Source of the DNA: Dehalococcoidia bacterium
GTDB taxonomy: Bacteria; Chloroflexota; Dehalococcoidia; Lucifugimonadales; JAGWBF01
Length of the DNA stretch: 64,000 bases
Reading direction: 5' to 3'
NCBI GenBank assembly: GCA_965248975.1
Contig: CBDFKU010000016.1
Coordinates: 64,764-128,763 of the forward strand
Position numbers and translations under genes: made by a program. Below the pieces are notes generated by a model. The model saw only the letters and a program-made list of their open reading frames with translations, made no database searches and was not told the DNA's origin. Position 1 is the first letter of the stretch. Each line of letters begins with the position of its first letter. Of this stretch, positions 4,440 to 37,482 are shown one piece after another.

Positions 4440-5786
4440 ATGGCAAAGAGCAGAGTCCTCCTCATATCCGTTATCGCCATCGCTCTGGCCGTGGCCGGGA
4501 TCGTCGTAGGCCTGGGCTTGGCCGGGGCCATCGGCTCCGGAGACTCACCTTCGGAGGCCCGGACACCTCAGACAGCGACGCCCACCATAGCTGAGGTGGC
4601 GGTCCAGCCCGACCCTAACTATAGGGAAGAGCTGGCGAAAGGTATTTTCTCCCCCTCGGGATGGAAGACCGACTTCAGCCTTCACACCGTGCCTTACGAG
4701 AACATCGTACAGGCCGCCGCCGCTCGGGACGGAGGTATCCCGGCCATCGACAATCCGGTATTCATCAGCCGCCAAGAGGCCGACGGATGGCTCTTCGCCC
4801 TTGAGCCGGTGATCGCCTTCGAGAGCAACGGCGAGGCCAGGGCCTACCCGATCGAGATCCTGATATTCCACGAGATCGTCAACGACGTGGTGGGTGGCAC
4901 GCCCGTTGCGGTAACCTATTGCCCCCTCTGCAACTCCGCAATCACCTTCGACAGGCGAGTGGATGGTGCCACCTTCGACTTCGGCGTATCGGGCAACCTG
5001 CTGAACAGCGACCTGATAATGTACGACCGCCAGACCCACTCGTGGTGGCAACAGCTCACCGGCGAAGGCATCGTGGGAGAAAACGCCGGCAAGAGGTTGA
5101 CGATCCTGCCGTCGTTTGTAGTGTCCTGGAGGGATTTCAAGGCGGTGTTTCCCGATGGGGAGGTTCTTTCCCAGGATACCGGATTCGCCCGCGCCTACGG
5201 ATTCACTCCCTACGAAGGTTACGATGACTCTACCTACGACCCGTTCCTGTTCTACGGGGAGCTCGACCCGAGGCTCCCTTCCAAGGAGCGGGTGGCGGCG
5301 GTGAGCGTAGGCGACGTCGACATAGCCTTTCCCTTTTCGAAGCTGCGGAATCAGAAAGTCGTAAACCACTCCGTCAACGGACAGGACATTGTGGTTTTCT
5401 TCAAGCCGCAGACGGTCTCGCCGTTGAACAGGACCTCCATAATCGACTCCCTTCCCAGGGGCGCCGCCGCGGTCTTCGATCCCAACCTGGACGGCGAGCG
5501 GCTGACCTTCAGCGCCGACGGCGAGGACCTCGTCGACGATCAGACGGGTAGCGTGTGGAACATCTTGGGACGGGCTATCGAAGGTCCGCTGGAGGGTAGC
5601 CGGCTGCCGCCGGCTACCACATCACCGACCCCGATCTCAGGAGCTTCGTGTACCAGACTTATAACACGTGGGCGGCAGACTTCTCCAAGGCGAGCCCCGG
5701 CCGACTTGCTGCTCTGGCTTGTATCCCCAATACGGACCCACAGCTGGCCGCCTCGGAACTGCGGCGGACCGCCAAGCTGGGCCTGA
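4440..5786 (+). CDS. DUF3179 domain protein with aberrant (read-through) C-terminus
   Basis: N-terminal TM anchor 'VLLISVIAIALAVAGIVVGLGLAG'. The core 'GIPAIDNPVFIS...ARAYPIEILIFHEIVNDVVGGTPVAVTYCPLCNSAITFDR...MYDRQTHSWWQQ' is the DUF3179 signature. After 'LEGSRLPP' (~5610) the expected aromatic C-terminal segment is absent. The frame then continues as a Pro/Arg/Ser/Trp-rich tail across the next gene fragment to the stop at 5786. Confidence 0.6.
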   Translation: MAKSRVLLISVIAIALAVAGIVVGLGLAGAIGSGDSPSEARTPQTATPTIAEVAVQPDPNYREELAKGIFSPSGWKTDFSLHTVPYENIVQAAAARDGGIPAIDNPVFISRQEADGWLFALEPVIAFESNGEARAYPIEILIFHEIVNDVVGGTPVAVTYCPLCNSAITFDRRVDGATFDFGVSGNLLNSDLIMYDRQTHSWWQQLTGEGIVGENAGKRLTILPSFVVSWRDFKAVFPDGEVLSQDTGFARAYGFTPYEGYDDSTYDPFLFYGELDPRLPSKERVAAVSVGDVDIAFPFSKLRNQKVVNHSVNGQDIVVFFKPQTVSPLNRTSIIDSLPRGAAAVFDPNLDGERLTFSADGEDLVDDQTGSVWNILGRAIEGPLEGSRLPPATTSPTPISGASCTRLITRGRQTSPRRAPADLLLWLVSPIRTHSWPPRNCGGPPSWA

Positions 5787-25761: not shown

Positions 25762-26391
25762 ATGAGACTATGCTGGTTACTAAGTTCACAAAAGTTTGGT
25801 TTAGTGGTGATAGTGCTGGCCCTCCTGACCGCCGGAGCGTTTATCATCCGGGATACCTTGGTGTCTGGCTCCGGTAGTCTTGATTCAGAACAAAGTCAAC
25901 TTAACAACAAGTGCACAGATAGCAGCGATTACGACGCCGATTGCGACGTAGATCGAGATGGGAGAATAAATGTCGTAGATCTTTCTTTGATTGCTAGGCA
26001 TCTCGGTCAGACCGGCGATCCCACACGGTTTCCGGGCATACCTGTTGGCTCCGTTGTTGCTTGGTTAAGTGCCCTCCCGAATGTTCCTTCACTTCCAGAA
26101 GGATGGGTAGAATGCAATGGTCAGGTTCTGGATGACCCCGAGAGCCCCTTCGATGGGCAACTAATCCCTAACCTGAACGGGGCCGACGGCGAAGCCCAAA
26201 GATTCTTAAGAGGATCAACATCGTCCGGTAATGACGGGGGAGTGGAAACCCATCGTCATGGGATTCCCAGAGGAGATCACGACTCCAACGGCACAGGTGG
26301 GTCAGGCGACGATTTATCTGGATGTTGTACTGATCATGCCGAAAATCTTCCCCCTTTTTACGAGGTAACCTGGATTATGCGCGTAAAATAA
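25762..26391 (+). CDS. membrane-anchored protein with dockerin-like Ca-binding repeat and phage tail-collar-like domain (low-GC gene)
   Basis: N-terminal TM 'FGLVVIVLALLTAGAFII'. 'DCDVDRDGRINVVDLSLIARHLG' looks like a dockerin/EF-hand repeat. 'PVGSVVAWLS..P.LPEGWVECNGQVL...LIPNLNG....RFLRG' and the terminal 'ENLPPFYEVTWIMRV' resemble the tail-collar (Collar/MdpB-like) pattern. The start is uncertain because AAGGAG abuts ATG 25762 with no spacer. Confidence 0.5.
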   Translation: MRLCWLLSSQKFGLVVIVLALLTAGAFIIRDTLVSGSGSLDSEQSQLNNKCTDSSDYDADCDVDRDGRINVVDLSLIARHLGQTGDPTRFPGIPVGSVVAWLSALPNVPSLPEGWVECNGQVLDDPESPFDGQLIPNLNGADGEAQRFLRGSTSSGNDGGVETHRHGIPRGDHDSNGTGGSGDDLSGCCTDHAENLPPFYEVTWIMRVK

Positions 26392-32709: not shown

Positions 32710-32946
32710 GTGGGTGCGCGGTGCTTTCAAGTGTCGCTGGAGTGGGACGCCGAAGATTGTGTTTGGGTTACTTACGTGCCAGTGCTCAACTACCTCTCTA
32801 CCTTCGGAGAGACCCGAGAAGAGGCACTTTCCAATACAGAGGAGGCTGTCATCGGCTACCTGGAGGCTGCAGCTCGGGAGAGGCTGCCCGTTCCCGCCGG
32901 AAACACCGCAGCCGAACTGGTCTCGATTGAGATTATGGTCCCGTGA
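32710..32946 (+). CDS. hicB: type II antitoxin, HicB family
   Basis: 78-aa ORF reading 'FQVSLEWDAEDCVWVTYVPVLNYLSTFGETREEALSNTEEAVIGYLEAA', the HicB/UPF0150 RNase-H-like fold pattern. Its stop overlaps the hicA GTG (GTGA at 32943-32946). Confidence 0.7.
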   Translation: MGARCFQVSLEWDAEDCVWVTYVPVLNYLSTFGETREEALSNTEEAVIGYLEAAARERLPVPAGNTAAELVSIEIMVP

Positions 32947-33177
32947 CACGATTGCCGCGGGTGAGCGGCAGGGACATGCCGCGAGCCTCGCGGCAAGGCG
33001 GGTTTCGCCTATCCCACGTTCGTGGCAGTCATCATTATCTGCGGAAGCCCTGAGCCCCCGGCTTGGTTGTGGGTACCGGTCCACGGCAATCGAAGTCTAC
33101 CGGTCGGTACCATTCGCTCCATTCTGCGGCAGGCTGAGCTGACTCCCGAGGGACTCGTTAGCTTGCCAAGGGTTTGA
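32943..33177 (+). pseudogene. hicA: type II toxin HicA, disrupted by a frameshift
   Basis: From GTG 32943, frame 0 reads 'VTRLPRVSGRDMPRASRQGGFRLSHVRGSHHYLRKP*'. The rest of a HicA, 'VPVHGNRSLPVGTIRSILRQAELTPEGLVSLPRV*', continues in the +1 frame to TGA 33175-33177. The shift lies between ~33036 and 33075, near a C5 run. Confidence 0.65.
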
Positions 33178-33365: not shown

Positions 33366-34640
33366 CTATCTTCGGGCCGCGATCGACGGACTCACCACTC
33401 CGAGCTTCTCCAGTAGCTGTCCCGTCTCCTCCAGCAGGTCTTTCAGGTTCCAGCCCAGAGCCGCGGAGACCAGAACGCCAGGATGCTGGGAGAGTATGGG
33501 CAACTCGTCCACGTGTTCCCCATTGTCACGAGGTACCACCAGGTCCATCTTGTTCACCACCATGAGCTTCGGTTTGTCTCCCAGCCCCAGCTCGTCCAGG
33601 GTTTTACCCACCACCTCCGTCTGCTCCGGCGCCTTGGGATGAGTGATGTCGATGACATGGAGGAGAAGGTCGGTTTGCTGAAGCTCTTCCAGGGTCGCCC
33701 TGAAAGCGTCGACCACGGTGGGAGGCAGCTTGTGAATGAACCCCACGGTGTCCGTGAGGAGCACCTGGCCCCCGGCCGGCAGCCAGATGCGCCGGGTCAC
33801 CGGGTCGAGAGTGGAGAAGGGCTGATTCTGGACGGCGACTCCGGCTTCGCTCAGGGCGTTGAACAAGGTGCTTTTGCCAGCGTTGGTGTAGCCGACCAAG
33901 GATACCACCGGGAGCCGGGCCTGCTTGCGCCGGCTCATATAGGACACCCTTCGCTGACTGACCTGCTTGAGCTCGGCCTCCAGCCTCTGGATTCTTTTGC
34001 GGATGAGACGCCGGTCCGTTTCCAGCTGGGTCTCGCCGGGACCCCTGGTGCCTATCCCTCCGCCAAGACGCTCCAGATGGGACCACTGGCCTACCAGCCG
34101 TGGCAGCAGGTACTGATGCTGGGCCAGCTCCACCTGCAACTGGCCCTCGCGGGTCCGGGCATTGCGGGAGAAGATGTCCAGGATCAGGGCCGTCCTGTCG
34201 ATGATTTTAACTTCCAGAACGTTTTCCAGGTTCTTTTGCTGGGTGGGCGTTAGCTCGTCGTCGAAGATGATCAGGCTGCACTGGGTCTCGGCCTGGAGGC
34301 GCTTGAGCTCGTCCAGCTTTCCGGTTCCCAGATAGTGGTTGCTGTACTTCTCCAGACGTTGCCCGACGGTGGAGACCACCTCGGCTCCGGCGGCGCCTGC
34401 CAGGAGCGCCAACTCTTCCAGGGACTCCTCCAGGCTCCACAGAGGGTCCTTGTCTTTGAGGGCAACCCCAACCAGAAGGGCCCTTTCGGCGGATGGACCG
34501 GTCCTTATCTGTGCTTTGGGTATGGGCGGCCTCCTAGCTTCCCTGGGGAGCGGGGATGGTCCAGGACGCCAGCCTCTCGACGCCCGTGTCCACCCGCTCG
34601 TCAGGGGTCGTGAGGGAGAAGCGTATGTATCCCTCGCCAT
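33366..34640 (-). CDS. hflX: GTPase HflX
   Basis: 'ALLVGV...', '[18 protein letters not shown]', '[16 protein letters not shown]', G1 '[16 protein letters not shown]', 'LTDTVGF', 'NKMD'. The only ATG (34640) overlaps dapL by 107 nt, so the true start is probably downstream and non-canonical. Confidence 0.85.
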
Positions 34641-35712
34641 ACTTACCGTAGCTTGATCCGGGGGTCACCACGATGTTTCGGTCGTCCAGGAGCCGGGCAG
34701 CGAACTCAGCGGAAGTAAACCCCTCGGGGACCCTGGCCCAGACGTACAGGCAGGCCTTGGGCGGAGTGACCCTCAGACCGATCCGGGTCAGCACGTCCAC
34801 CAGCTTGTCCCTGCGGCGCTGGTATATGGCGTTGTTCTGCTGGATAGGCTCCTGGGAGCCGGACAACGCCTCCATGGCCATCTCCTGGATAGCCTGGGGT
34901 ATGCCAGAGTCTAGGTTCGACTTGATCCTGAACAGGGCCCTTATCATTTCAGTGTTCCCCACCACCATGCCGATGCGCCAGCCGGTCATATTGAAGCACT
35001 TGGAGAGGGAGTGGAACTCGATGCCCACCTCTGCGGCGCCTTCGACTTCCATGAAGCTGGGCGCCCTGTAGCCGTCAAATACTACCTCGCTGTAGGCAGC
35101 GTCGTGGAGCACGGCGACGTCGTAGCGGTGGGCGAAGTCCACCGCCTGCCGGTAGTACTCCAAAGTAGCCGTTCCCGCCGTCGGGTTGTTGGGGTAGTTA
35201 AGCCACATCACTTTGGCGTCCCGGGCGACGTCAGCGGGTATGGCTTCCAGGTCGGGCAGCCAGCCGTTCTCTTCCAGCAGGGGCATGGGGTAGCTCTCTG
35301 CCCCGGCGAACATAGTGCCCACTCCGTACACCGGGTAGGCAGGGTCCGGAACCAGAGCCACGTCTCCCGGGTCCAGGAAACAGAAAGCGGCGTGGCCGAT
35401 CCCTTCTTTGGCGCCGATGAGGGGCAGGACCTCCTTGTCCGGGTCCAGCTTCACGTCAAACCGGCTCTTGTACCAGTCGGCGATGGCGCGGCGCAGCTCG
35501 GGAAGGCCGTCGGTCTCCGGGTAGCGGTGATTGGGAGGGCTGTGGGAGGCCTGCACCAGGCGGTCCACTATGTGGGAGGGTGTAGGGATGTCAGGGTCGC
35601 CGATGCCGAAGGTGACCACGTCCTCTCCGGCGGCCCGCTTCTCGGCCAGAATGCGGGATATCTCCACGAAGGGATAGGGCGCCAGCTGGTCAAGGCGCTT
35701 GGAGAATTTCAT
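34534..35712 (-). CDS. dapL: LL-diaminopimelate aminotransferase-like class I aminotransferase
   Basis: 392-aa ORF with '[11 protein letters not shown]', '[14 protein letters not shown]' and PLP-lysine context '[15 protein letters not shown]'. The DapL assignment rests on these motifs plus the nearby dapF, so it is moderately confident. Confidence 0.65.
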
Positions 35713-35746
35713 TCAGTCCTGCCTTCAATTCTGGTTGTTTCATAGG

Positions 35747-36445
35747 TTATAGATAACCTTCAGGGGTCAGCAGTTCAAGAGTTGGATCGAGTTCTTTGTA
35801 GGGCAACGTATCAAGACGATTCCAGTTTTCGTCTCCTTTTTCCAACCGTCTGCTTACTTCTTCTAGTGGTACAATCCAGACGCTATCCAAATTTTCGAAA
35901 TATTGCTGAAGAAATTTGTTGGAACCACTGTATTCAGGTAGATCCGCGATCCATTCTTTTAGTTCTTCAGCTTCATCCACCGTGTTAACAAGGACACGTG
36001 GCAATGAGAGAACTGGCTTGTCAGAGTTTGGGTAGGTGGCGGACGGCAATAAAAGAGGAACTCCCTCCGCTGGGGGGATCCCGAGAACAAGACATTGGTT
36101 AGACTCAGGCTTGGCACGCCATTCCCGTTCATGGGTCCAGTCAACCGGGTAGCGGAAAGTCTCGTGTGGTATGGGCGCGTAGCGCACCCATAGATATTTA
36201 CGTTCATCAGGAAGGCTATTCAGCAGACTTTCGTCTCCATAAATGACCGGCCTGCCTCCATATTCATAAAGGTGCCATTTGTGCATCACTACGCCGTACG
36301 GGTGGTAACGACCAGACAATACTGCACAAGACTTGATGAACGCATCTAGCGGCTGTTCTGTAAAACAAACAGCTGGGCGCGGACCCTTTATCGTATCTTC
36401 TTGTCCACCGACGGTAAACCGGGCCTTCGGTGCAAAGGTAGGCAT
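35747..36445 (-). CDS. AbiGi-like (abortive-infection-type) protein, low-GC insert
   Basis: 232 aa from ATG 36445. 'PAVCFTEQPL', 'YGVVMHKWHLYEYGGRPVIY' and 'DWTHEREWR' match my recollection of AbiGi-family motifs. The frame stays open a further 51 codons upstream (to 36598), encoding 'DYVIHWTRGKVIDKKYVKPFDILKSILSSGYL', with no ATG/GTG/TTG. The gene is markedly AT-richer than its flanks. Confidence 0.5.
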   Translation of the reverse strand: MPTFAPKARFTVGGQEDTIKGPRPAVCFTEQPLDAFIKSCAVLSGRYHPYGVVMHKWHLYEYGGRPVIYGDESLLNSLPDERKYLWVRYAPIPHETFRYPVDWTHEREWRAKPESNQCLVLGIPPAEGVPLLLPSATYPNSDKPVLSLPRVLVNTVDEAEELKEWIADLPEYSGSNKFLQQYFENLDSVWIVPLEEVSRRLEKGDENWNRLDTLPYKELDPTLELLTPEGYL

Positions 36446-36624
36446 CAGATAACCGGAACTCAGTATTGACTTTAAAATATCAAACGGTTTTACATATTTT
36501 TTGTCGATAACTTTGCCCCGCGTCCAATGGATAACGTAATCCGTAAGGTCAGCTCTAGCCGTCCTTATCTTTCGCCAGTCTGGTAGAATAAGCGTTTTTT
36601 ACGATCCCCGATCCGTCACAAGTG

Positions 36625-37482
36625 TTATTCTCTCCACTCGCCCTCGAACACCTCAACCGCATCGCCCTCCAGGTATACCTGGCCCCGGCCATCCCAGTCG
36701 ACTTTGAGGGTGCCTCCCGGAAGTGTTATGTCAACCGACTCTCCGGTGAAGCCCAGTAGCCGGGAGGCCACGGCGATCGCGGATGCGCCGCTGCCGCAGG
36801 CCATGGTCTCTCCCGAGCCGCGCTCCCACACCCGGGAAGTGAGCTTCCCATCTCCTTCGACGTTCACGATCTCGAAGTTGACCCGGCGGGGGAACATGGG
36901 GTGGTGCTCCACCTTCGGCCCGATCGTGTGCAGAGGAAACCTCTCCACCGGCTCCGGGATGAAGGCGATGGCGTGGGGATTCCCCATCGACACGAAGCTA
37001 AGCTTGAGGGAGGTCCCGTCGACCTGCACCGGATAGTTCACCACGGCCCCGCCCGCCTTCTCCTGAGGAGCGGAGTCCAGCACCACCGGCACCTTGTCTG
37101 GCTCGAGGCGGGGTGCGCCCATGGCAACCCTGGCCCGGACCACCTTTTTGCCCTCCATGAGGGGCTCCACCGTCCTGATGCCTGCCAGGGTCTCCACCCG
37201 CAGTCCCGTTCCGTCGGGGCGGGCGATGGCTCGCTCGATGGCGTACTTGGCGAAGCACCGGATGCCGTTTCCACACATCTCCCCCTCAGAGCCGTCGGCA
37301 TTGAACATGCGCATCTTCAAATGGGCAACATGGGACGGCAGGATGAGTATAATGCCGTCGCCGCCCACGCCGAAGTGGCGGTCGCTCATTGCTTGTGACA
37401 GAGTCGGCCAGTCGGCCTGCAGCGACCGGGCGTCGATGAAGATGTAGTCGTTGCCCGCTCCGTGCATCTTGGTGAACTTCAT
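36625..37482 (-). CDS. dapF: diaminopimelate epimerase
   Basis: 'MKFTKMHGAGNDYIFID' and the two catalytic Cys contexts 'EMCGNGIRC' and 'ETMACGSGASA'. Confidence 0.92.
   Translation of the reverse strand: MKFTKMHGAGNDYIFIDARSLQADWPTLSQAMSDRHFGVGGDGIILILPSHVAHLKMRMFNADGSEGEMCGNGIRCFAKYAIERAIARPDGTGLRVETLAGIRTVEPLMEGKKVVRARVAMGAPRLEPDKVPVVLDSAPQEKAGGAVVNYPVQVDGTSLKLSFVSMGNPHAIAFIPEPVERFPLHTIGPKVEHHPMFPRRVNFEIVNVEGDGKLTSRVWERGSGETMACGSGASAIAVASRLLGFTGESVDITLPGGTLKVDWDGRGQVYLEGDAVEVFEGEWRE

What the first reader, a model, noticed from the sequence alone, without database searches (positions are those of the whole stretch)
35713..36624. Low-GC AbiGi-like gene wedged into the dapF-dapL operon, with a conserved N-terminus that lacks a canonical start codon
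Seen: between the dapF stop (36625) and the dapL start (35712) lies ~0.9 kb that is visibly AT-richer than its GC-rich flanks (by eye, not computed). Spacers are only ~30 nt on each side, leaving no room for its own promoter or terminator. The ORF carries 'PAVCFTEQPL', 'YGVVMHKWHLYEYGGRPVIY' and 'DWTHEREWR', which I recall as AbiGi (abortive infection) family motifs. The reading frame stays open 51 codons upstream of ATG 36445 (TAA at 36599-36601). That stretch encodes 'DYVIHWTRG...PFDILKSILSSGYL', resembling the family's conserved N-terminal 'hFT...IL..G' opening. It contains only ATT/ATA/CTG as possible starts. No AbiGii-type partner is present, and the C-terminal ~90 aa are unassigned. Inference: a horizontally acquired solo defence-type gene riding on a housekeeping transcript, started non-canonically or 5'-damaged.
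Basis: partly seen in the sequence, partly recalled or inferred. Interest (0 to 1): 0.7.

Follow-up and report, generated by a model that had tools for sequence, protein, structure and literature searches.

The report
Start-less AbiGi-like gene between dapF and dapL
A foreign-looking gene of an uncharacterised protein family distantly related to the phage-resistance protein AbiGi occupies a swappable slot between two lysine-pathway genes of a Dehalococcoidia-type (Chloroflexota) bacterium, and a single base change (ATG to ATT) has removed its start codon, so it is probably switched off or only weakly made.

Summary
Window 35713-36624 has 47% GC against 62-64% in the flanks. The gene's GC3 is 0.44 against 0.75-0.87 in its neighbours. 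It lies 35 nt after dapF and 34 nt before dapL. Its frame is open for 283 codons, but the first ATG/GTG/TTG is codon 52.

The gene belongs to a family of about 280-aa "hypothetical" proteins (2,190 50%-identity clusters). The window protein fails Pfam AbiGi (11 bits, cut-off 22.4). The family profile, however, matches a set of Pfam-AbiGi-positive proteins at 99.9% probability (E 9e-36). No partner gene is conserved, so it is a solo gene.

The 51 unannotated N-terminal codons are part of the predicted fold (pLDDT 94.6) and keep every conserved residue. The window's ATT (36587-36589) aligns with the start codon of the homologues. All 41 relatives whose 5' end could be read have a canonical start there. 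The simplest reading is a recent ATG>ATT loss.

The dapF|dapL junction is variable in relatives: Uma2, a HicB-like gene, empty (twice), or a 62%-identical copy of this gene.

A defence role and ADP-ribosyltransferase chemistry remain inferences; structure searches found nothing. Interest is moderate.

The parts
35747..36589 (-). Inferred full-length CDS of the AbiGi-like gene 'X': 280 codons from ATT 36589, plus the TAA stop at 35747-35749. The frame is open three codons further, up to 36598.
   Evidence: Translation. Homologues of 262-306 aa cover 94-100% of the 283-codon frame. The family HMM scores 417 bits on it.
36587..36589 (-). ATT codon at the position of the family's start codon (M of MPxDW). 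It is an inferred ATG>ATT change.
   Evidence: Alignments A1 and A3. DNA of the syntenic copy in L081 reads ATG CCT CCT GAC TGG; the window reads ATT CTA CCA GAC TGG. 41 of 41 relatives have a canonical start 3-10 codons before the conserved Trp.
36599..36601 (-). In-frame TAA that closes the frame upstream. It coincides with the Met of the longer N-terminal variants (MRTVIFKDW).
36443..36445 (-). First canonical start (ATG, residue 52). It is the start of the 232-aa product on record (P0001). This is not a conserved Met: the family consensus has Lys here.
36446..36598 (-). N-terminal 51 codons outside the 232-aa ORF. They encode helix 7-14, strand 21-25 (YVIHW, with invariant H24) and helix 38-48.
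   Evidence: AF2 model, pLDDT 94.6. 11 of 11 columns conserved in the close clade and 7 of 7 in the wider family are retained.
36104..36598 (-). AbiGi-like core domain (residues 1-165). Candidate catalytic positions: H24 (36527-36529), C78-F-T80 (36359-36367), E157-R-E159 (36122-36130).
   Evidence: hhalign of A2 against A5 covers residues 11-215. Invariant columns. The ART-type motif reading rests on the literature.
35750..36103 (-). C-terminal region (residues 166-283). It matches no Pfam, PHROG or NCBIfam family. It folds confidently as beta-alpha units and ends in the clade-specific tail TPEGYL.
36590..36624 (-). 35-nt spacer between the dapF stop and the ATT. The only GGGGA string lies 16 nt before the ATT, and there is a short in-frame mini-ORF GTG...TAA. 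No promoter-like site.
35713..35746 (-). 34-nt spacer between the X stop and the dapL ATG. It holds dapL's own Shine-Dalgarno region (GGCAGGA), which is shared with relatives that lack X.
36625..37482 (-). dapF (diaminopimelate epimerase), left border of the variable slot.
   Evidence: Pfam DAP_epimerase 1.1e-56.
34534..35712 (-). dapL-type aminotransferase, right border of the variable slot.
   Evidence: Pfam Aminotran_1_2 5.3e-69. Homologues are named LL-diaminopimelate aminotransferase by their sources.

Best explanation
X is a horizontally acquired, single-gene cargo. It belongs to a large, uncharacterised, roughly 280-aa branch of the AbiGi/DUF2971 superfamily. It occupies a variable slot between dapF and dapL, where relatives carry other small toxin-antitoxin or nuclease-type genes, or nothing.

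X has no promoter of its own, so it can only be transcribed with the miaA-dapF-dapL-hflX string (inferred).

In this genome the family's ATG start has become ATT by one G>T change. The full-length protein is therefore probably no longer made, or is made at a very low level. The rest of the gene is still intact, so the change is recent.

The 232-aa product on record starts at an accidental internal Met. It lacks a core strand carrying the invariant His24, so it is unlikely to be functional.

If made in full, the protein is most likely an enzyme built on the AbiGi-type core, with invariant His24, Cys78-x-Thr80 and Glu157-x-Glu159. Published profile analyses class that core with the R-S-E ADP-ribosyltransferases. 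A conflict or defence role is inferred from that kinship and from the gene's mobility. It is not shown.
For: Foreign composition: GC3 0.44 against 0.75-0.87 in the neighbours.

Family: 680 close hits, all unnamed and without Pfam domains. 2,190 clusters at E<=1e-3.

AbiGi kinship:
- 39 of 100 members hit PF10899 weakly.
- hhalign against 22 Pfam-AbiGi-positive proteins gives 99.9% probability, E 9e-36.
- The window protein scores 92 bits on the HMM of those 22 proteins.

Solo status: no conserved neighbour in the 80 genome loci clustered.

Variable slot:
- L172 (dapL 94% identical): Uma2.
- L173 (86%) and L176 (84%): empty.
- L174/L175 (86%): HicB-like gene.
- L081 (85%): X copy, 62% identical.

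Window X is no closer to the L081 copy than to copies in other contexts. The host order is (WIN, L172), L173, L174, with L081 outermost.

Start codon:
- The ATT aligns with the ATG of the homologues.
- 41 of 41 relatives have a canonical start there.
- All conserved N-terminal columns are kept: 11 of 11 and 7 of 7.
- The N-terminal residues are part of the confident fold.

ART classification of AbiGi/DUF2971: bioRxiv 10.1101/2024.07.30.605764.
Against: - Foldseek found no significant match in PDB or BFVD for the full model or the N-domain. ART structures appear only at E 0.95 (1tii) and E 8.5 (Arr-2). The ART fold is therefore not confirmed here.
- PADLOC, NCBIfam and PHROGs gave nothing.
- Family members mostly sit next to housekeeping genes rather than in defence islands.
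- L. lactis AbiGi alone was not toxic in E. coli (PMC3985639).
- The gene shows no decay beyond the start codon, which also fits continued use.
- An X copy in the same slot in the outgroup relative could instead mean old vertical presence with later losses.
Confidence: 0.6

Rival explanations
1. The gene is functional and starts at ATT (AUU). The weak start keeps a potentially harmful enzyme at a very low level while it rides on the dapF-dapL transcript.
For: The 283-codon frame is intact. 61 of 63 clade-conserved columns and 41 of 41 family-conserved columns are retained, including all N-terminal ones. AUU is a documented rare bacterial start, for example E. coli infC (own knowledge). The upstream spacer is A-rich and unstructured.
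Against: None of 41 relatives uses a non-canonical start at this position, so this is not a family trait. The only Shine-Dalgarno-like string (GGGGA) lies 16 nt upstream, outside normal spacing.
Confidence: 0.2
2. The ATT is a consensus or sequencing error in a metagenome-assembled contig. The real organism has ATG and a normal gene.
For: The source is probably a MAG: the exact protein is on record from a single 262-kb contig. Related contigs come from low-coverage long-read assemblies with broken genes. A nearby hicA is split by a 1-nt insertion.
Against: The change is a substitution, not an indel. The flanking dapF, dapL, hflX, miaA and thiolase are all intact and full length. No read data could be checked.
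Confidence: 0.1
3. The 232-aa ORF from ATG 36445 is the real, functional product.
For: It is the only ORF with a canonical start, and it is the product on record (P0001).
Against: Met52 is Lys in the family consensus. This product lacks strand 21-25 with invariant H24, invariant R15 and D17, and helix 38-48, all of which are part of the confident fold. Most near-full-length homologues listed carry this N-terminal segment; a few shorter entries do not. No Shine-Dalgarno sequence precedes ATG 36445.
Confidence: 0.05
4. X is an old, vertically inherited member of the dapF-dapL operon with a role tied to diaminopimelate/lysine metabolism.
For: A copy lies in exactly the same slot in L081, where its stop codon overlaps the dapL start.
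Against: The closest relative has Uma2 there and two others have nothing. Close family members sit between archease and rtcB, before uvrB, after grpE, before der, and after an aminoacyl-tRNA synthetase. GC3 has not drifted toward the host value. The two syntenic copies are only 62% identical while dapL is 85% identical.
Confidence: 0.03

Closest known systems
[quoted passage not shown]
   Same: The core domain is homologous. The shared motifs are a His on strand 1 (xHxTR), AVCF[ST]E.PL, RY..YG, GGRPVIY and D[WF]THEREWR. Profile-profile probability is 99.9% against Pfam-AbiGi-positive proteins. Like AbiGi, it has no detectable structural match in the PDB (PMC13064643).
   Different: The window protein is far below the Pfam cut-off (11 bits against 22.4). 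There is no abiGii partner next to it, and no partner is conserved among the genome loci clustered. It is longer, with an insertion at residues 163-198 and an extension at 216-283. It is chromosomal and lies inside a housekeeping gene string of a Dehalococcoidia-type genome. No phage-resistance data exist for this branch.
DUF2971 / short (~190-210 aa) AbiGi-like proteins of Vibrio, Marinomonas, Falcatimonas and others
   Same: The family HMM hits them at E 1e-20 to 1e-27. Some sources name them 'DUF2971 domain-containing protein'. They are likewise solo genes and occur on some plasmids.
   Different: No member of the window's family hits Pfam DUF2971 at E<0.1. The short forms lack the C-terminal extension.
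R-S-E-clade ADP-ribosyltransferases (cholera toxin / LT-II type) and DarT
   Same: Published profile analyses place AbiGi and DUF2971 among ART-like families near DarT and Tox-ART-HYD1. The window family has an invariant His on strand 1, a C-x-T on strand 76-80 and an invariant E-x-E before strand 160-162. This is the order of ART motifs I-III.
   Different: No significant sequence or structure match to any solved ART. Activity, substrate and NAD+ use are untested.
Variable cargo slots between conserved core genes (defence or toxin-antitoxin hotspots)
   Same: The same junction carries alternative small genes (AbiGi-like, Uma2, HicB-like) or nothing in related genomes. The borders fall at the end of dapF and at the dapL ribosome-binding site.
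   Different: The slot holds a single promoter-less gene inside an operon-like string, not a multi-gene island. No integrase, att-type repeats or inverted repeats were found.

Membership tests
Pfam AbiGi (PF10899) | Score at or above the curated gathering cut-off (22.4 bits) | tested here: not met
   10.7 bits for the long form and 11.5 bits for the short form, E 0.3-0.5. Among 100 family members, 39 hit at E<0.1, best 1.6e-4.
AbiGi superfamily (remote homology) | Significant profile-level similarity to proteins that do pass Pfam AbiGi | tested here: met
   hhalign of A2 against A5 (22 proteins, all matching PF10899, best 1.8e-7, first member 25.0 bits): probability 99.9%, E 9e-36, 162 columns. 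Window X against the A5 HMM: 92 bits, E 1.3e-27.
AbiG abortive-infection system | Bicistronic abiGi-abiGii pair | tested here: not met
   The neighbours are dapF and dapL. No neighbour family is shared by more than 5 of the 80 genome loci clustered. The neighbours checked in further loci are unrelated housekeeping genes.
AbiG abortive-infection system | [quoted passage not shown] | not testable with these tools
   Known only for L. lactis AbiG (PMC13064643).
Known defence systems (PADLOC-DB v2) | Match to any defence-protein HMM | tested here: not met
   0 families at E<=1.
DUF2971 (Pfam) | Pfam match | tested here: not met
   Absent from the hits of 100 members at E<0.1. Only distant relatives carry that name in source annotations.
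ADP-ribosyltransferase fold (R-S-E clade) | Three catalytic motifs in order on strands 1, 2 and 5 | tested here: inconclusive
   H24, C78-x-T80 and E157-x-E159 are invariant or nearly so, and lie on or beside predicted strands in the right order. The assignment of these positions to ART motifs is by analogy with the literature.
ADP-ribosyltransferase fold (R-S-E clade) | Structural similarity to solved ARTs | tested here: not met
   Foldseek against PDB with the full model and the N-domain model found nothing at E<=0.001. 1tii_A scored E 0.95 and Arr-2 (9iba) E 8.5.
Type IV toxin-antitoxin antitoxin (Pfam label for AbiGi) | Adjacent toxin whose toxicity it neutralises | tested here: not met
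   No adjacent toxin gene. Neutralisation itself is not testable here. L. lactis AbiGi and AbiGii were each non-toxic in E. coli (PMC3985639).

The most novel reading that the evidence does not exclude
The ~280-aa AbiGi-like branch could be a class of promoter-less, single-gene cassettes that colonise junctions inside conserved housekeeping gene strings of Chloroflexota and other phyla. Junctions seen here are dapF|dapL (twice), archease|rtcB, GGDEF|uvrB, after grpE, before der, and after an aminoacyl-tRNA synthetase. Such cassettes would live off host transcription and translational coupling. Their conserved C-terminal P-E-[SG]-Y-L codons might double as a ribosome-binding site for the downstream host gene. 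The dapF|dapL junction would be a recombination hotspot that swaps conflict-type cargo (AbiGi-like, Uma2, HicB-like). On this reading the ATT start would be a tolerated attenuation of a harmful ADP-ribosyltransferase rather than gene death.
Probability: 0.15. Interest if true: 0.6.

Novelty: new variant of a known kind. Interest (0 to 1): 0.4.

Why it matters
AbiGi is one of the oldest known abortive-infection genes, and its mechanism is still unknown. This locus belongs to a large sister branch (about 2,200 sequence clusters) that no Pfam, NCBIfam or PADLOC model captures. The branch always occurs without AbiGii, and its predicted structure is very confident (pLDDT 94.6) yet has no solved relative. 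That makes it a convenient single-protein entry point for testing whether the AbiGi core is really an ADP-ribosyltransferase.

The locus also gives a small, clean example of a one-gene cargo slot inside an operon-like string, with four different occupancy states among six related genomes.

For annotation, the 232-aa product on record is almost certainly wrong. The gene should be read as a 280-aa family member with a lost start codon.

Tried and rejected
Searches that found nothing significant:
- PADLOC, NCBIfam and PHROGs scans of the 283-aa form.
- HMM search of PDB sequences with the family profile; only a spurious antibody hit.
- Foldseek of the full model against PDB and BFVD, and of the N-domain model against PDB. 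The ART fold could therefore not be confirmed.
- Rfam scan and RNA folding of the spacer.
- Promoter and terminator scan: not above chance.
- Search for direct or inverted repeats at the insert borders. This gives no sign of a transposon, integron attC or integrase-type site.
- Clustering of neighbours across 80 genome loci for a conserved partner.
- tblastn of dapF, dapL, hflX and miaA against all fetched loci: only L081 shares the context.

Other attempts:
- Exact look-ups of P0001, P0038 and P0126 returned no contig. The window's own record and its reads could therefore not be examined.
- dN/dS between the window and L081 copies was considered and dropped. At 62% protein identity the synonymous sites are saturated.
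- Stop-codon read-through from the upstream GTG mini-ORF, and ATG>TAA at the 'long' start position, were considered and rejected as unparsimonious. The second needs three substitutions.

Full report
**1. What is in the sequence**

All features below are on the minus strand. dapF (36625-37482; Pfam DAP_epimerase 1e-56) ends in TAA. dapL (34534-35712; Aminotran_1_2 5e-69) starts at ATG 35712. The 912 nt between them have 47.4% GC, against 61.7% and 64.0% for the 3 kb on either side. The sliding profile dips to 0.42-0.53.

The reading frame in this stretch has GC3 = 0.44. Its neighbours dapL, dapF, hflX, miaA, tpiA and the thiolase have 0.75-0.87. It is the lowest of 53 ORFs in the window (mean 0.77, sd 0.09).

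The frame is open for 283 codons, from the TAA at 36599-36601 to the stop at 35747-35749. The first ATG/GTG/TTG is ATG 36445, which is codon 52.

The simple scans found no promoter-like or terminator-like site above chance, no repeats at the borders, no Rfam family and no unusual RNA structure in the spacer. One small correction: ATC also occurs among the near-cognate codons.

**2. What family it belongs to**

The 283-aa translation finds 680 proteins at E<=1e-3. Nearly all are 260-300 aa, none has a precomputed Pfam domain, and every name given is "hypothetical". A profile of 100 of them finds 2,190 50%-identity clusters at E<=1e-3, 790 at 1e-10 and 112 at 1e-30 among 1.84 billion representatives.

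Direct scans of the window protein give only a sub-threshold AbiGi hit (10.7-11.5 bits against 22.4) and nothing in PADLOC, NCBIfam or PHROGs. The link to AbiGi is nevertheless real, on four counts:

- 39 of 100 family members hit PF10899 at E<0.1.
- More distant, roughly 190-aa relatives reach the Pfam cut-off.
- A profile-profile comparison with 22 such Pfam-positive proteins gives 99.9% probability, E 9e-36, over 162 columns.
- The window protein scores 92 bits on an HMM of those 22 proteins.

Other distant relatives carry a C-terminal DUF4427 or are named "DUF2971 domain-containing" by their sources. The gene is not a Pfam AbiGi member, and it is not part of an AbiG system: no partner is conserved among the 80 genome loci clustered.

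**3. Structure and likely chemistry**

A survey of ADP-ribosyltransferase (ART) families treats AbiGi as a known ART-like family. It places AbiGi with DUF2971 in or near the R-S-E clade, close to DarT (bioRxiv 10.1101/2024.07.30.605764).

In the window's family the invariant or near-invariant residues are:

- H24 on strand 21-25.
- C78-F-T80 on strand 76-80.
- E157-R-E159 just before strand 160-162.

This is the order of ART motifs I-III, so ART-like catalysis is the best available mechanistic guess. It is inference. The only ART structures in the Foldseek lists scored E 0.95 and E 8.5.

**4. The start-codon problem**

The 51 codons upstream of ATG 36445 are part of the family protein. Homologues cover them. 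They form a helix, a core strand and a second helix in the model. Every column that is at least 95% conserved among the relatives is retained in the window: 11 of 11 in the close clade and 7 of 7 in the wider family. For the rest of the protein the figures are 50 of 52 and 34 of 34.

The Met of most homologues (MPxDW) aligns with the window's ATT at 36587-36589. At DNA level the syntenic copy in L081 reads ATG CCT CCT GAC TGG, against ATT CTA CCA GAC TGG in the window. In all 41 related loci whose 5' end could be aligned, a canonical ATG/GTG/TTG lies 3-10 codons before the conserved Trp. The window is the only exception. Met52 is a Lys in the consensus.

The most economical reading is a single, recent G>T change that removed the start codon. 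ATT-initiated low-level translation remains possible, as does an assembly error. The only GGGGA string is 16 nt upstream, which is poor spacing for a ribosome-binding site. The 232-aa product on record lacks invariant R15, D17 and H24 and a core strand, so it is unlikely to be the functional form.

**5. Where it sits and how it got there**

Homologues of the window's dapL are named as Dehalococcoidia or Chloroflexi by their sources. The gene string miaA-dapF-[slot]-dapL-hflX, with a thiolase gene beyond it on the opposite strand, is conserved in the relatives. The slot itself varies:

| Locus | dapL identity to window | Slot content |
|---|---|---|
| L172 | 94% | 190-aa Uma2 nuclease-like gene |
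| L173 | 86% | empty (86 nt) |
| L174/L175 | 86% | 71-aa HicB-like gene, plus a leftover copy of the dapL ribosome-binding site and first ~9 codons |
| L176 | 84% | empty (35 nt) |
| L081 | 85% | X copy, 62% identical, its stop overlapping the dapL ATG |

Identities of dapL and the thiolase place L081 outside the other genomes. Window X is no closer to the L081 copy (62%) than to copies in unrelated contexts (63%). Together with the unameliorated GC3, this favours repeated gain, or cassette exchange by recombination in the conserved flanks, over simple vertical descent. An old polymorphism cannot be excluded.

Other members of the close clade are wedged in a similar way. They have short spacers, usually a co-directional upstream gene, and lower GC than their flanks. 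The contexts are:

- between archease and rtcB;
- between a GGDEF gene and uvrB;
- 11 nt after grpE;
- 22 nt before der;
- after a class II aminoacyl-tRNA synthetase;
- after a short-chain dehydrogenase.

These are not defence islands, so the context does not support a defence role.

**6. Verdict**

The gene is a foreign, solo, AbiGi-related gene riding inside a housekeeping gene string, with a damaged start.

Three refinements follow from the work here. The AbiGi link is remote but statistically solid. The start defect is a one-base loss specific to this genome, not a family habit. The insertion site is a recurrent cargo slot.

The defence function and the ADP-ribosyltransferase chemistry remain untested. 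I rate it a new variant of a known kind (a solo, extended AbiGi-like protein) and of moderate interest.

Noticed in passing
window 32710-33177 (+): A hicB-like gene lies at 32710-32946 (HicB_lk_antitox, 23.4 bits, below the cut-off). It is followed by a hicA split by a 1-nt insertion. The N-terminal half runs from about 32945 to the TGA at 33051-33053. The C-terminal half is 33022-33177 in the next frame (HicA_toxin 28.4 bits, profile positions 28-58 only). This is a second disrupted toxin-type gene, sitting between the thiolase and hflX.
   Followed up: partly
window 25762-26391 (+): A second compositionally foreign ORF (209 aa, GC 0.505, GC3 0.457). It has only weak Dockerin_1 and phage tail Collar hits, both below the cut-offs.
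   Followed up: partly
L174 and L175, about 4720-4770 (between dapF and the HicB-like gene): A leftover copy of the dapL ribosome-binding site and first ~9 codons (GGCAGGAGTGAGTTAAGTGAAATTCTCTGAGCACCTTGAACAG) lies upstream of the inserted HicB-like gene. This suggests the cassette arrived with its own fresh dapL 5' end.
   Followed up: partly
window 35747-35770; L081 2455-2479; L164 1058-1078; L167 2612-2632: The close clade ends in a conserved P-E-[SG]-Y-[LF] tail. Its codons (GAGGGG, GAGAG, GAAGG) form a Shine-Dalgarno-like string 8-12 nt before the stop. In L081 (ATGA overlap) and L167 (2-nt gap) the downstream host gene starts exactly there.
   Followed up: no
window 35735-35746 (-): Two nucleotides after the X stop lies CTATGAAA. 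This is the same string that forms the overlap of the X stop with the dapL start in L081. It may be a relic of such a junction, or chance.
   Followed up: no
L081 733-1628: dapF of this relative is broken into several pieces on a low-coverage long-read contig (7x). This is probably assembly error, and it is a reminder that single-base features in these metagenome assemblies need read support.
   Followed up: no
L082 and L083 (P0034 loci): The same 278-aa family member lies in two different arrangements of flanking DDE transposase genes on two contigs. In some genomes the gene therefore sits in transposon-rich regions.
   Followed up: no
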